From Octopus sinensis (Eukaryota), in assembly GCF_006345805.1 (NCBI RefSeq), contig NW_021827398.1, forward strand, positions 1-10,452: a stretch of DNA of 10,452 bases, given 5' to 3'. The notes beneath the pieces were generated by a model. That model worked only from the letters and a program-made list of their open reading frames with translations, was not told the DNA's origin and did not search any database. The position numbers and the translations under genes are program-made. Each line of letters begins with the position of its first letter. Within the stretch, counting starts at the first letter, position 1. Below are positions 1,391 through 9,937 of this stretch, one piece after another.

Positions 1391-1549
1391 GGCAGTTGAA
1401 AGTACAGAATATTTAGAAATGATATGGATTTTTGTATTTCGGGTGCAATAGTATCAAGTTGATATACGCCAAATAAAGAAGTATTTTGAATGAAAATGAA
1501 AATACTATTTTAGGATATATATTGCTATATCCATCTATCTACCCGTCCA

Positions 1550-1550
<1 letters not shown>

Positions 1551-1630
<80 letters not shown>

Positions 1631-1758
1631 CCTGTCTGTCTGTCTGTATACCTGTCCGTCTGTCTGTCTGTCTGTCTACATATATATATATCTACACACA
1701 TACATATATATGTATGTATATATATATATATACGTCTATATATATATACACATATATA

Positions 1759-3292: not shown

Positions 3293-3522
3293 ATTATAGT
3301 GAATCTAAAGAAACCGTTTCTTTAGACATATTATGAATCTGCGATAGGAATATTGACGGCGTTTCGTCATCATCTCTCCTGTTTTAAGCGAAAACCAACT
3401 CTATAGGAGATAAACAGGCCAACGGGAGTTTTCGGCATTGCAATGGCTTCCATTATAGAAATCAACAAGGAAAAGGAGTTTGGTAAACAGTTTAATATAT
3501 AATACGTTAGTGAATGTGAAGA

Positions 3523-3605
3523 AGAGAGAGAACGAGAGAGGGAGAGAGAGAGAGAGAGAGAGAGAAAAAAGAGAAAGGAGGAGAGAGGTAGAGAGGGTGA
3601 GAGAG
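3523..3605. repeat. (AG)n microsatellite / purine tract
   Basis: Direct reading. Confidence 0.93.
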
Positions 3606-3779: not shown

Positions 3780-3891
3780 CATATGCACACACACACACAC
3801 ATATGTATATTGTATACATATATATATACATACATACATCCATACCCATACATACTAATTATATATATATAATATTATATAAATAATAATA
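3746..3891. repeat. (TA)n/(CA)n/(TACA)n compound microsatellite
   Basis: Direct reading; it flanks fold-back element 1 on the left. Confidence 0.9.
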
Positions 3892-4053
3892 TAGGGAATA
3901 GATCCAAATTTCCAGGGAAAAAAAAATCAGATTTAGGATTAAATCCAATTTTATAGTAAAATATTATAAATATTATTAGAGACAAAACCACTATTTGCAA
4001 AACAAACAAGGAAGACTTAATCATAAATAAATTTTATAAATAGTCAAAAACCG

Positions 4054-4095
4054 CCACTACAATTGTTTCTTGTCTGATCGACAATCTTCAGGTGG
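4054..4095 (-). ncRNA. Minimal type I hammerhead ribozyme motif
   Basis: Minus strand reads CCAC CUGAAGA UUGUC-GAUCA-GACAA GAAA CAAUUG UA GUGG. Stem I is CCAC/GUGG, the CUGANGA and GAAA core is intact, stem II is 5 bp, stem III is the palindrome CAAUUG, and the cleavage triplet is GUA. The stem II closing pair is U-A instead of the usual R-Y. Confidence 0.72.
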
Positions 4096-4155
4096 ACTCA
4101 ATAAGTCAGTTTTCAATTATGAGACTTCCTAATTTGAAACTGACTTATTGGAAGT

Positions 4156-4197
4156 CCACCTGAGATTGTCGATCAAGACAAGAAACAATTGTAGTGG
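4156..4197 (+). ncRNA. Inverted copy of the hammerhead motif with a 1-nt core deletion
   Basis: CCAC CUGAGA UUGUC-GAUCAA-GACAA GAAA CAAUUG UA GUGG. The core is one A shorter than the minus-strand copy, by mutation or sequencing indel. Confidence 0.55.
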
Positions 4198-4296
4198 CGG
4201 TTTTTTTGACTATTTATTAAAATGTTATGTTGATTAAGTCTTCCTGTTTGTTTTGCAAAATAGGGGTTTTGTCTCTAATAATATTTTATATATATA

Positions 4297-4691
4297 TCTA
4301 TATATATATTATATATATATATAATAATAAAATCCGTTCGTCTGTCTGTCTGTCTGCTTTCTGAGGATCTGGGCATCCTCCATCCTATTGCGCTCAATTT
4401 GATATGTAGATACCGACGGTATCAGGGCGTGTATAAGTCTTGATAAAAATTACAAAAATCGATTCCAGGTGAGAATGCGATCGATAAAGCCGCGGGAACG
4501 TGAATTTGAAAAATCGTTTTTCTTGGAATAGTAAAAAAGTCTATCTTTATGTCTTCTTTTGCTGGTGTCTCAAATTAAGCTTAAATCAGTGTTTCTCAAA
4601 GGGGAGACCAATGGAACAGTCGGACAAGTTGTTTTGGGTTTAAATGTCTGACAACTGAGCACCGTCCATTGGACGGGGTGCGTTTTGGTCG
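4297..4691 (+). mobile_element. Probable non-autonomous Helitron-like element
   Basis: 5' A|TC start followed by (TA)n and a subterminal (GTCT)n tract. GC-rich 3' hairpin gcaccgtcca-t-tggacgg(gg)tgc at 4659-4681, about 10 nt before a GTCG|T end (degenerate CTRR|T). No TSD or terminal inverted repeat. Confidence 0.55.
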
Positions 4692-4780: not shown

Positions 4781-5312
4781 AGGGTAGCAAAAAATTCTAG
4801 AAAAAATTCTCCGCTACCAGCGGTCTAGTGAGAAAGAAAGATAGTCAAAGACTATAATAATATCATTCAACAATATAAGGAATGGCCCTAATAGGCCATT
4901 CGACTCACTAGAAAGACCAGCCAAACTCAAACCGCTAAATAGTTGTAATTCTGAAATTGAAAGAGAAATAAAAAAACATTTACCCTTTTCATCTCTGGAC
5001 TATGCATAGTTTCGACAAACCGCGGTGGCGGTGGAGTTTTGAAAATTTAGAGCATATAGACTGGAGGCTTCGTTGCCGTCGCCTCGTGGACATATACTCG
5101 TCCTCGGCTTCTCTGCTGACGAGACACGCCAGTTGTAAATAAATCTAATTTAATTTAATTAAGTTTGTCGAAACTATGCGTAGTCCAGAGATGAAAAGGG
5201 TAAATGTTTTTATTTCTCTTTCAATTTCAGAATTACAAATATTTTGCGGTTTGAGTTTGGCTGGTTTTCTAGTGAGTCGAATGGCCTATTAGGGGCATTC
5301 CTTATATTGTTG
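4779..5312. mobile_element. Fold-back element 2: inverted arms 4868-5020 and 5163-5312 with a 142-bp spacer, carrying a hammerhead; probable Penelope-like or retrozyme-type remnant
   Basis: caacaatataaggaatg...tttcgacaaac is the near-exact reverse complement of gtttgtcgaaa...cattccttatattgttg. The left arm has an unpaired extension to taaggg at 4779. (TA)n lies on both sides. Confidence 0.78.
5110..5191 (+). ncRNA. Type I hammerhead ribozyme with canonical GUC cleavage site
   Basis: Stem I UCUCUG (5110-5115) / CAGAGA (5186-5191). Core CUGACGA (5116-5122). Stem II GACA (5123-5126) / UGUC (5166-5169) with a 39-nt AU-rich loop. GAAA (5170-5173). Stem III CUAUGCGUAG is self-complementary. GUC at 5183-5185, with cleavage predicted after 5185. 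Confidence 0.85.
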
Positions 5313-5366
5313 TATACATTATATATATATTATATAGATATTATATATATATATATATAATATATC

Positions 5367-7964: not shown

Positions 7965-8111
7965 GAAATGCCATTTCCGTTCTCTTTTCTTTCTCAGTGA
8001 GTGCACAGAAAGCTGTTAGAAGGTCTGGCATGGCACCGATGCGAGAACTTTTTTCAAACATGGCTGGTTTCGAAAGAGAGAAAATGAAAGTGAAAGTAAG
8101 AGAAAGAGTGC

Positions 8112-8114
<3 letters not shown>

Positions 8115-8190
<76 letters not shown>
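8115..8190. repeat. (AG)n microsatellite
   Basis: Direct reading. Confidence 0.96.
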
Positions 8191-9677: not shown

Positions 9678-9833
9678 CATAATATAATATATATTATATA
9701 TATATGTGTGTATATATATCTGTATATATATATACATATGTTTGGAAATATATACTTATATATAAATACATACATTATGTATATGTATTAATGCATATAC
9801 ATACATACATACATACATACATACATACATACA

Positions 9834-9864
<31 letters not shown>

Positions 9865-9937
9865 CTACATACATACATATATATATATATATTTATATAT
9901 AAACACATATATTTGTGTATGTGTATATATATATATA
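9678..9937. repeat. Compound (TA)n / (TACA)n microsatellite
   Basis: (TACA)n core at about 9797-9875 flanked by imperfect TA repeats. Confidence 0.94.

What the first reader, a model, noticed from the sequence alone, without database searches (positions are those of the whole stretch)
4054..4197. Divergent pair of minimal hammerheads, one per strand, in a 326-bp palindrome
Seen in sequence: the minus strand carries a 42-nt HHR (CCAC-CUGAAGA-stem II-GAAA-CAAUUG-UA-GUGG), and the opposite arm has the same motif on the plus strand with CUGAGA. Apart from the core it is unrelated to the HHR at 5110, so two distinct ribozyme families lie within about 1 kb. Stem III is only the palindrome CAAUUG, the known signature of dimer-dependent PLE hammerheads. 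Inference: transcription from either direction gives one ribozyme plus its own antisense, so hairpin formation could suppress cleavage or feed small-RNA pathways.
Basis: partly seen in the sequence, partly recalled or inferred. Interest (0 to 1): 0.75.

Follow-up and report, generated by a model that had tools for sequence, protein, structure and literature searches.

The report
Mirror-image Penelope-type hammerhead repeat
This is one worn copy of a small non-coding repeat present thousands of times in this animal genome; its two mirror-image halves each carry a minimal hammerhead ribozyme motif of the kind known from Penelope-like retroelements, predicted to cut RNA only in pairs, so it is an ordinary member of a known class.

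Summary
A 42-nt minimal type-I hammerhead motif lies on the minus strand at 4054-4095. Its mirror copy lies on the plus strand at 4156-4197 and has lost one core A. Both sit in a 320-nt palindrome (3968-4287).

This is not a single locus. It is one diverged copy of a repeat whose 32-nt hammerhead word occurs 2,533 times exactly in the 2.72-Gb genome. In other copies both arms carry the intact core.

Each arm is the 3' end of a longer non-coding element whose copies are cut short at different 5' points. The palindrome is a head-to-head double insertion into a (TA)n microsatellite. An 85-95-nt tail sits on exactly one arm. Variants shared between copies are mirrored in both arms.

These features match published Penelope-like element (PLE) insertions, and RT plus GIY-YIG elements are abundant in this genome. 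I found no sequence link to a specific autonomous partner.

Folding gives a double hammerhead for two copies (-22 against -6.5 kcal/mol for one). A whole-palindrome transcript folds into a hairpin of about -200 kcal/mol that would bury the ribozyme.

No usable RNA data were available. Covariation support is weak. Verdict: new member of a known kind. One lead is worth following: truncated copies start just after the predicted cut site.

The parts
3856..3881 (.). AT-rich (TA)n-type microsatellite flanking the left end
   Evidence: Sequence. A (TA)n run of at least 8 nt abuts both ends in 30 of 32 aligned rows by script. The other two show it by eye in the alignment.
3882..3967 (-). One-sided tail: an extension of about 85 nt, read as the 3' tail of the minus-sense unit
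   Evidence: It is present on exactly one arm in all 32 aligned rows (30 distinct copies) and in all 8 loci with short palindromes. It is present in 9 of 17 single-arm copies.
3968..4124 (-). Left arm: the 3'-terminal module of the element, sense on the minus strand
   Evidence: Inverted repeats, family alignment and a perfect 335-nt consensus palindrome.
4054..4095 (-). Minimal type-I hammerhead motif with an intact core. Loop 2 is one nt shorter than in the family. The predicted cut lies between 4058 and 4057.
   Evidence: Descriptor hit and dimer fold.
4121..4128 (.). Head-to-head junction at the centre of the palindrome
   Evidence: The hairpin loop in the fold. Centres differ between copies: the spacing between the two hammerheads is 51-104 nt in 19 of 20 pairs.
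4125..4287 (+). Right arm: the same module, sense on the plus strand, without a tail
4156..4197 (+). The same hammerhead motif with a one-base deletion in the core (CUGAGA at 4160-4165), so probably dead in this copy. The site would lie between 4193 and 4194.
   Evidence: Sequence. It fails the descriptor. Other family copies have CUGAAGA.
4288..4330 (.). (TA)n-type microsatellite flanking the right end

Best explanation
The two hammerhead motifs are mirrored copies of one sequence module in a head-to-head double insertion of a high-copy, non-coding mobile element. The element was likely inserted into a (TA)n microsatellite by the reverse transcriptase/endonuclease of a Penelope-like element (PLE). 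The ribozyme is predicted to cut only when two copies pair through their ACAAUUGU stretch.

Shown directly:
- The motif, the palindrome and the copy number.
- The (TA)n flanks and the one-sided tail.
- Single arms that continue into a longer non-coding element (about 1 kb or more) with variable 5' truncation.
- Mirrored shared variants.
- Abundant RT plus GIY-YIG open reading frames in the same genome.

Inferred:
- Element RNA is copied from its 3' end at a cut (TA)n site.
- Both arms are made from one template lineage at each insertion, either by both DNA ends priming or by the cDNA folding back on itself. This gives a perfect palindrome with a variable centre.
- One arm starts at the RNA's very end (with tail) and the other at an internal AU-rich site (without tail).
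- In RNA from long or tandem copies, two hammerheads would pair and cut after GUA.
- In a transcript of a whole palindrome the ribozyme would be locked in a hairpin of about 160 bp. In this copy the plus-strand ribozyme is also broken.
For: (1) The motif meets the hammerhead core and helix rules and is far above chance.

(2) The best dimer fold is the double hammerhead, with an 8-bp intermolecular helix III: -22.0 kcal/mol against -6.5 for the monomer.

(3) Repeat family. The first look found 1,701 candidates and all 40 scored were 87-93% identical to the window. The consensus is a perfect palindrome.

(4) Signs of a retroelement.
- Of 20 lone hammerhead words fetched, about 13 are the 3' end of a longer element. 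Homology runs more than 760 nt upstream in six of them. It stops at about 470, 330 and 230 nt upstream, or 9 nt upstream of the motif, in others.
- The 3' ends are constant and abut (TA)n.

(5) PLE insertion signature as published. This comprises a head-to-head inverted copy, a tail at one end only, and AT-rich or (TA)n targets (PMC3846280 and PMC8557442, passages read). A PLE protein cuts and extends both strands and initiates internally (PMC11167929, abstract and passages read). Here exactly one tail per dimer is seen in 30 of 30 distinct canonical copies and in 8 of 8 loci with short palindromes.

(6) Lineage variants are mirrored. Position 104 is changed in both arms in 14 rows, position 108 in 2 rows, and L013 has 3 changes mirrored in both arms. 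Private changes are mostly one-sided: 96 one-sided cells against 21 mirrored and 1 changed in both arms without mirroring.

(7) Autonomous PLEs are present. GIY-YIG gave 5,029 first-look candidates, and 149 of the 150 scored passed, with open frames up to 883 aa. [quoted passage not shown]

(8) Related families B and C keep the core, helix I and helix III. They vary in N7, loop 2 and the closing pair of helix II, which is U-A, A-U or A.G.
Against: - I found no sequence homology between the arms and the ends of the autonomous PLEs sampled (30 loci of about 3.3 kb and 6 of 9.9 kb). The only matches look like neighbouring insertions.
- The sampled 781-aa PLE has no hammerhead by my descriptor.
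- No Rfam hammerhead model matches.
- The G10.1-C11.1 pair, which PMC4209133 calls highly conserved, is U-A here.
- Covariation is weak. Only one of 13 pairs has a change on both sides, and shuffles reach the observed score in 35 of 500.
- Palindromes without a hammerhead are as common as those with one (10 against 10 pairs). The word downstream of the motif is commoner than the hammerhead word (4,278 against 2,533). So the ribozyme is not needed for a copy to exist.
- Target-site duplications cannot be read inside (TA)n.
- No RNA evidence of any kind was obtained.
Confidence: 0.7

Rival explanations
1. It is the same Penelope-type non-autonomous element, but the hammerhead-like module is not a working ribozyme. 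It would be a relic, or a structured piece of the 3' module kept for another reason such as recognition by the reverse transcriptase.
For: U-A stands in place of the conserved G10.1-C11.1. Helix I has only 4 bp with no loop contacts. Published PLE minimal hammerheads cut poorly in vitro (PMC4209133, part 2). A PLE study found no reads at the hammerhead site (PMC11167929, passage). Copies without a hammerhead are abundant. Covariation is weak.
Against: All 11 core bases, A15.1/U16.1 and H17 are kept in families A, B and C. Changes fall at N7, loop 2 and one compensated pair. Several unrelated hammerhead types with the same rules occur in 394 kb of fetched loci, against 0 in 5 Mb of control sequence. 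Truncated copies start just after the predicted cut site.
Confidence: 0.15
2. It is a DNA transposon derivative (a MITE or foldback element with long terminal inverted repeats and a TA target), and the hammerhead-like motif sits in the repeats by accident.
For: It is a near-perfect palindrome with TA-rich flanks. Inserts of 0.2 to 4.2 kb lie between arms at some loci. No ORF is present.
Against: Single arms are common and continue into a long element with variable 5' truncation and a constant 3' end. The tail breaks the terminal symmetry in every dimer. Subfamily variants are mirrored in both arms, which cut-and-paste transposition does not produce. No transposase-bearing relative was seen.
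Confidence: 0.1
3. It is a host hairpin-RNA gene, such as a microRNA or siRNA precursor, and the hammerhead is incidental.
For: The hairpin is very stable. There are weak matches below the gathering score to plant and animal microRNA precursor models (MIR5038 at 37.7 bits against a gathering score of 70).
Against: There are thousands of copies with variable centres. The Rfam matches are far below the gathering scores and are typical of any long hairpin. No small-RNA data were available.
Confidence: 0.04

Closest known systems
Minimal hammerheads (min-HHRs) in the pseudo-LTRs of Penelope-like elements (Cervera & de la Pena 2014, PMC4209133; parts 1-2 read)
   Same: Type-I motif, short helix I (4 bp), helix III reduced to a palindrome, inferred action as a dimer, very high copy number, and mostly solitary motifs away from full elements. 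That paper already notes pairs of min-HHRs 100-700 bp apart on opposite strands.
   Different: Helix II has 5 bp, not 7-8. There is no unpaired base after A9 in family A. The 10.1-11.1 pair is U-A (A-U or A.G in sister families), not G-C. The motif was not found in the ends of the autonomous PLEs sampled here.
PLE insertion architecture: inverted pLTR, head-to-head junction palindromes and a one-sided tail (Arkhipova et al. 2013, PMC3846280; Craig et al. 2021, PMC8557442; passages read)
   Same: Head-to-head inverted copy, a tail on one end only, AT-rich or (TA)n targets, partial tandems, 5' truncation, and mobilisation in trans by pLTR-like ends.
   Different: The tail is about 85-95 nt here, against 30-40 bp. 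The unit is a short non-coding module with no ORF between the repeats. Copy number is in the thousands.
Animal non-LTR retrozymes (Cervera & de la Pena 2020, PMC7229834, passages; Li, Clavereau & Pollet 2026 preprint 10.64898/2026.07.22.740005, abstract and section 14 read)
   Same: Non-autonomous, hammerhead-bearing, AT-rich, a few hundred nt long, and proposed to derive from PLE ends.
   Different: Retrozymes are defined by head-to-tail tandem arrays and circular RNAs. This family is mostly dispersed, as inverted dimers or 5'-truncated long copies, and tandem arrays are rare (455-nt and 927-nt periods). The neighbouring element at 4783-5330 fits the retrozyme pattern better.
HDV-like ribozymes that define the 5' end of R2 and other non-LTR retrotransposon RNAs (recalled; cited in the discussion of PMC4209133)
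   Same: If the 5'-end pattern seen here reflects self-cleavage, a ribozyme would set the 5' end of a retrotransposition template.
   Different: It is a different ribozyme class. Here cleavage would remove the ribozyme from the template, not leave it at the 5' end. This is untested.

Membership tests
Hammerhead ribozyme, type I | Conserved core C3 U4 G5 A6 N7 G8 A9 and G12 A13 A14 | tested here: met
   It is met on the minus strand at 4054-4095 and in nearly all aligned family copies in both arms. The plus-strand copy at 4156-4197 lacks one A and fails.
Hammerhead ribozyme, type I | A15.1-U16.1 pair and a cleavable H17 that is not G | tested here: met
   GAAA-CAAUUG-UA: A15.1, U16.1 and A17. 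These are invariant in 17 distinct variants.
Hammerhead ribozyme, type I | Three helices around the core, open at helix I | tested here: met
   Helix I has 4 bp and helix II has 5 bp in the monomer fold. Helix III forms only between two copies, as 8 bp. 96.4% of cells are paired over 17 variants.
Hammerhead ribozyme, type I | Covariation supporting the helices | tested here: inconclusive
   One of 13 pairs has changes on both sides (U-A 7, A-U 5, other 5). Shuffles reach the covariation score in 35 of 500.
Hammerhead ribozyme, type I | Match to the curated Rfam hammerhead models | tested here: not met
   No hammerhead family matched at gathering score or at E<=10.
Hammerhead ribozyme, type I | Self-cleavage at the H17 site | not testable with these tools
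   This needs transcription and cleavage assays or end-specific RNA sequencing. The runs on offer were contigs of unknown kind.
PLE minimal hammerhead (Cervera & de la Pena 2014) | Palindromic positions 15.2-16.2 and no stable helix III as a monomer | tested here: met
   ACAAUUGU, or ACGAUUGU with G.U pairs, is self-complementary.
PLE minimal hammerhead (Cervera & de la Pena 2014) | Highly conserved G10.1-C11.1 pair and an extra base between A9 and 10.1 | tested here: not met
   Of 111 distinct instances the closing pair is U-A in 80, A.G in 21 and A-U in 10. Family A has no bulged base.
PLE minimal hammerhead (Cervera & de la Pena 2014) | Location in the terminal repeats of an RT plus GIY-YIG element | tested here: inconclusive
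   Not found in the 36 PLE-bearing loci sampled. This is a small sample out of 5,029 first-look candidates.
Penelope-like element insertion (non-autonomous derivative) | Head-to-head inverted copy with a tail on one end only | tested here: met
   30 of 30 distinct canonical copies and 8 of 8 loci with short palindromes have exactly one tail.
Penelope-like element insertion (non-autonomous derivative) | Variable 5' truncation with a constant 3' end | tested here: met
Penelope-like element insertion (non-autonomous derivative) | AT-rich or microsatellite target | tested here: met
   (TA)n lies on both sides. The sampled autonomous PLE copies also end in (TA)n.
Penelope-like element insertion (non-autonomous derivative) | Sequence shared with the end of an autonomous PLE of the same genome | tested here: inconclusive
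   No convincing shared end was found. The partial matches in L059/L081, L106 and L108 look like separate neighbouring insertions.
Non-LTR retrozyme | Head-to-tail tandem arrays of units of about 170-400 nt, each with a hammerhead | tested here: not met
   Most copies are dispersed inverted dimers or long truncated copies. Only occasional tandems were seen, at C3:32185336/32185791 and C2:19098082/19099009.
Non-LTR retrozyme | Circular RNA products | not testable with these tools
   No raw RNA reads were available.
MITE / foldback DNA transposon | Both termini always present as inverted repeats, flanked by a target-site duplication | tested here: not met
   Single arms and 5'-truncated long copies are common. 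The one-sided tail breaks the symmetry. Duplications cannot be read in (TA)n.

The most novel reading that the evidence does not exclude
The genome keeps a footprint of hammerhead self-cleavage in vivo. Arms of this repeat either retain the whole ribozyme plus at least 10 nt upstream, or start within about 30 nt after the predicted GUA|G cut. Almost none start inside the ribozyme. This holds in three sister families. It would mean that the 3' cleavage product is itself reverse-transcribed and inserted, and that both arms of each palindrome are rebuilt from one template at every insertion. This would be the first in vivo evidence that Penelope-type minimal hammerheads cut.
Probability: 0.3. Interest if true: 0.6.

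Novelty: new member of a known kind. Interest (0 to 1): 0.38.

Why it matters
On its own this locus is an ordinary, partly dead copy of a mobile repeat. The family has some value as a natural data set on how Penelope-type elements insert, which is still poorly understood. It comprises thousands of young copies with perfect palindromes, exactly one tail per dimer, mirrored inherited variants and a two-class distribution of 5' ends. If the 5' ends mark ribozyme cleavage, they would settle whether these weak, dimer-dependent hammerheads work in animals. For annotation, such palindromes should be masked as repeats and not called as microRNA-like hairpins.

Tried and rejected
- Rfam gave no hits at gathering score. 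At E<=10 it gave only weak microRNA-precursor-like matches to the hairpins, all far below their gathering scores, and no hammerhead.
- There are no meaningful ORFs in the window, in a 4.2-kb stretch between two arms, or around a tandem array. I rejected the idea that these inserts encode the enzyme.
- Search for an autonomous partner. I examined 30 GIY-YIG loci of about 3.3 kb and six loci of 9.9 kb. There was no hammerhead and no convincing homology to the arms. Partial matches in L059/L081, L106 and L108 look like separate neighbouring insertions.
- Sequencing runs: no RNA holder was listed.
- Laying four runs gave only short Logan contigs of guessed kind. They show no starts, ends, strand or circular joints. 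The second laying call was not used, because no raw reads were on offer.
- I did not check the missing A against reads. The family alignment answers the question well enough.
- Earlier notes of this scan: none for this genome and none by sequence.
- Word counts do not show extra conservation of the hammerhead. The downstream 32-nt word is commoner, 4,278 against 2,533.
- The exact 27-nt word of the second hammerhead as it stands in the window is unique. The family form differs by one base.
- Literature searches for 'hammerhead ribozyme' with 'octopus' and for hammerhead, retrozyme, inverted repeat and hairpin found no paper describing this repeat family. Supplementary figures of PMC4209133, which hold the min-HHR alignments, were not read.

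Full report
**What is in the window**

The minus strand of 4054-4095 reads CCAC-CUGAAGA-UUGUC-GAUCA-GACAA-GAAA-CAAUUG-UA-GUGG. It satisfies a minimal type-I hammerhead descriptor:
- core CUGANGA and GAAA;
- A15.1 and U16.1;
- A17 as the cleavable base;
- helix I of 4 bp and helix II of 5 bp;
- helix III reduced to the self-complementary ACAAUUGU.

The mirror copy on the plus strand, 4156-4197, has CUGAGA and fails the descriptor. Both lie in a palindrome spanning 3968-4287. An extra 86 nt (3882-3967) sits on the left side only. (TA)n-type microsatellite lies on both sides.

The motif is not a chance hit. The descriptor gave 0 hits in 2,000 Markov replicas of the window and 0 in 5 Mb of Markov sequence. 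Rfam did not recognise it, either at gathering score or at E<=10.

**It is a repeat**

The window lies in a 2.72-Gb genome of 13,516 contigs. A search with 3952-4302 found 1,701 first-look candidates, and all 40 scored were 87-93% identical.

The 32-nt hammerhead word occurs 1,262 times forward and 1,271 times reverse. Its reversed control occurs 0 and 0 times.

I aligned 32 rows, which are 30 distinct copies. Some are clearly segmental or tandem duplicates of each other. The alignment shows:
- a unit of about 420-465 nt;
- a tail of about 85-95 nt on one side;
- a 335-nt palindrome that is perfect in the majority sequence;
- (TA)n at both ends.

Nearly all of the other copies have the intact CUGAAGA in both arms (L021 lacks the same A, L024 a base beside the core). 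The missing A at 4160-4165 and the missing loop base at about 4075 are therefore not family features.

**The arm is the unit, not the palindrome**

Of the first 100 listed hammerhead words, 40 form 20 divergent (minus, plus) pairs. Nineteen pairs are 51-104 nt apart and one is 250 nt apart. The other 60 words stand alone.

I fetched 20 of the lone words:
- 3 are full palindromes whose partner word is mutated;
- about 13 are single arms that continue upstream into a longer non-coding element.

In the single arms, homology runs more than 760 nt upstream in six copies. In others it stops at about 470, 330 or 230 nt upstream of the motif, or 9 nt upstream of it. Two long copies share about 1.05 kb. 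The 3' end is constant. Nine of 17 arms end with the tail and 8 end at the internal AU-rich site, directly followed by (TA)n.

Variable 5' ends with a fixed 3' end are the mark of target-primed reverse transcription. They do not fit a cut-and-paste element that needs both termini. Some pairs of arms enclose 0.2-4.2 kb of other sequence without ORFs.

**Both arms come from one template**

In the 32 aligned rows, most changes affect one arm only: 96 one-sided cells, against 21 mirrored cells and one changed in both arms without mirroring. Variants that define lineages are mirrored in both arms:
- CAAUUG to CGAUUG, in 14 rows;
- GAAAC to GUAAC, in 2 rows;
- three substitutions in copy L013.

The CAAUUG/CGAUUG marker also occurs in single-arm copies. 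Centres differ between copies. I infer that the mirror half is made anew at insertion, or that master copies are homogenised.

Published work on Penelope-like elements describes exactly this architecture:
- head-to-head inverted copies with junction palindromes, read as self-priming, and an optional tail on one end (PMC3846280, passages);
- partial tandems, an inverted 5'-truncated copy, a 30-40-bp tail at one end and a (TA)n preference (PMC8557442, passages);
- a PLE protein that cuts and extends both DNA strands and starts reverse transcription at internal sites, which explains the tail (PMC11167929, abstract and passages).

Here every dimer I read has exactly one tail: 30 of 30 canonical copies and 8 of 8 loci with short palindromes.

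**Is the enzyme there?**

GIY-YIG (PF01541) gave 5,029 first-look candidates, and 149 of the 150 scored passed. Open frames reach 883 aa.

[quoted passage not shown] Its copies end in (TA)n.

I found no homology between its ends and the arms, and no hammerhead in it. The partner is therefore not identified, and membership rests on architecture alone.

**Does the ribozyme work?**

In silico, one copy folds at -6.5 kcal/mol with helices I and II only. Two copies fold at -22.0 kcal/mol into the classical double hammerhead, with an 8-bp intermolecular helix III.

A transcript of the whole palindrome folds into a hairpin of -198 (plus strand) or -197 (minus strand) kcal/mol for the window copy, and -270 kcal/mol for a canonical copy. 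The antisense arm is transcribed first, so the ribozyme would be buried as it emerges.

Sister families keep the core, helix I and helix III. They vary where a hammerhead tolerates change:
- N7 is A, C or G;
- loop 2 takes six forms;
- the closing pair of helix II is U-A, A-U or A.G.

The formal count is weak. 96.4% of cells are paired, but only one of 13 pairs has changes on both sides, and shuffles reach the score in 35 of 500.

Points against a strong ribozyme:
- U-A stands in place of G10.1-C11.1;
- helix I has only 4 bp;
- such motifs have low published activity (PMC4209133);
- palindromes without any hammerhead are as common as those with one.

**A lead: where truncated copies start**

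I used a 32-nt anchor 35 nt downstream of the predicted cut, which has 4,278 exact hits.
- The first 100 places hold 20 pairs. Ten have spacing 53-83, ten have spacing 199-242, and none falls between.
- All ten short pairs lack the ribozyme, and their arms start at +9 to +26.
- I chose 20 lone anchors because they had no exact hammerhead word nearby, so this sample is enriched for damaged copies. Eight have the whole motif region. Of the 12 that are cut, 11 start at +6 to +26 and one at -9.

Family B has 72 anchor hits, and I read all 18 pairs:
- 8 pairs have the motif in both arms;
- 1 pair has one arm cut at -35;
- 5 pairs combine a whole arm with a short one, starting at +4, +16, +22, +25 and +26;
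- 4 pairs have two short arms, with starts that include +3, +5, +8 and +1 (the last could also be read as -8).

Two arms could not be placed. I read these positions by eye from the printed junctions.

So about 36-38 of roughly 40 readable truncated arms start in the 34-39 nt after the cut site. Only 2 or 3 start in the roughly 69 nt before it. Copies are not independent. At the least, three families each show a short class bounded at the site.

Possible readings:
- the 3' cleavage product serves as a template;
- lineages without a hammerhead were founded there by chance;
- the reverse transcriptase stops there.

**Context**

The neighbouring element (about 4783-5330) carries a different type-I hammerhead at 5110-5191 on the plus strand. 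It has helix I of 6 bp, G10.1-C11.1, a loop 2 of about 39 nt and C17. Its family word occurs 57 times, partly in tandem arrays of 459-470 nt, which is retrozyme-like. At C7:71.64 Mb the two elements sit side by side in a 1,349-nt tandem unit. Both seem to share the (TA)n target. Three further minimal hammerhead types turned up by chance in 394 kb of fetched loci.

**Earlier notes of this scan**

Two unchecked AI notes on other genomes are relevant. One describes palindromic mini-Penelope insertions in a shark whose centres differ between copies. The other describes a PLE-type repeat in TA microsatellites. They agree with my reading but are not independent evidence.

**Verdict**

The object is a decayed copy of a high-copy, non-autonomous, Penelope-type element inserted head to head. 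Its hammerheads belong to the known dimer-dependent minimal kind. It is a new member of a known kind, and the truncation pattern is the one lead worth testing.

Noticed in passing
window 4783-5330 (hammerhead at 5110-5191, plus strand; half motif on the minus strand at 4992-5018): This is a second inverted-repeat element, with a different type-I hammerhead: helix I of 6 bp, G10.1-C11.1, a loop 2 of about 39 nt, helix III ACUAUGCGUAGU and C17. The family form of its 27-nt word occurs 30 times forward and 27 times reverse, partly in tandem arrays of 459-470 nt, which is retrozyme-like.
   Followed up: partly
families A, B and C across the genome (loci L110-L155): Truncated arms start within about 30 nt after the predicted hammerhead cut site and almost never inside the motif. 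Pair spacings fall into two classes with nothing in between.
   Followed up: partly
L002-L030 alignment; L013: Variants shared by lineages are mirrored in both arms of the palindrome, while private changes are one-sided. Copy L013 has three changes mirrored in both arms that no other aligned copy has.
   Followed up: yes
L108:7153-7805; L006 (minus strand, near 2454 in reverse coordinates); L024 (minus strand, near 1128 in reverse coordinates): Three further minimal hammerhead types with 8-nt palindromic helix III were met by chance in flanking DNA. The one in L108 is again a divergent pair next to (TA)n. The control of 5 Mb of random sequence gave none.
   Followed up: no
L106:2832-5174, L107:2872-5214, L108:2821-5163, L109:4540-7188 (minus strand): A young Penelope-like element family has an open 781-aa (883-aa in L109) RT plus C-terminal GIY-YIG frame. 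It has a non-coding 3' region of about 1.1 kb with repeated TGATGACGTC-type motifs, and its copies end in (TA)n. My descriptor found no hammerhead in it.
   Followed up: partly
C2:19094232-19099032 (L039-L041, L050): A long form of family B lies in a head-to-tail array with a 927-nt period, with an inverted copy 3.8 kb upstream. There is no ORF between them.
   Followed up: partly
window 4089-4162 and 4974-5209: The hairpins of both elements give matches below the gathering score to microRNA precursor models (MIR5038 at 37.7 bits, MIR2619 at 47.9 bits). This is a likely source of false microRNA calls in such genomes.
   Followed up: no
window 1541-1640, 1890-2030, 3520-3600, 8110-8190, 9797-9935: The window is dense in microsatellites: (CTAT)n, (TGTA)n, (AG)n and (TA)n. 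There is no convincing coding frame anywhere in the 10.4 kb.
   Followed up: no
runs X1-X20: Near-identical words of the repeat are held by runs labelled with three different organism codes. The family is probably shared by close relatives.
   Followed up: no
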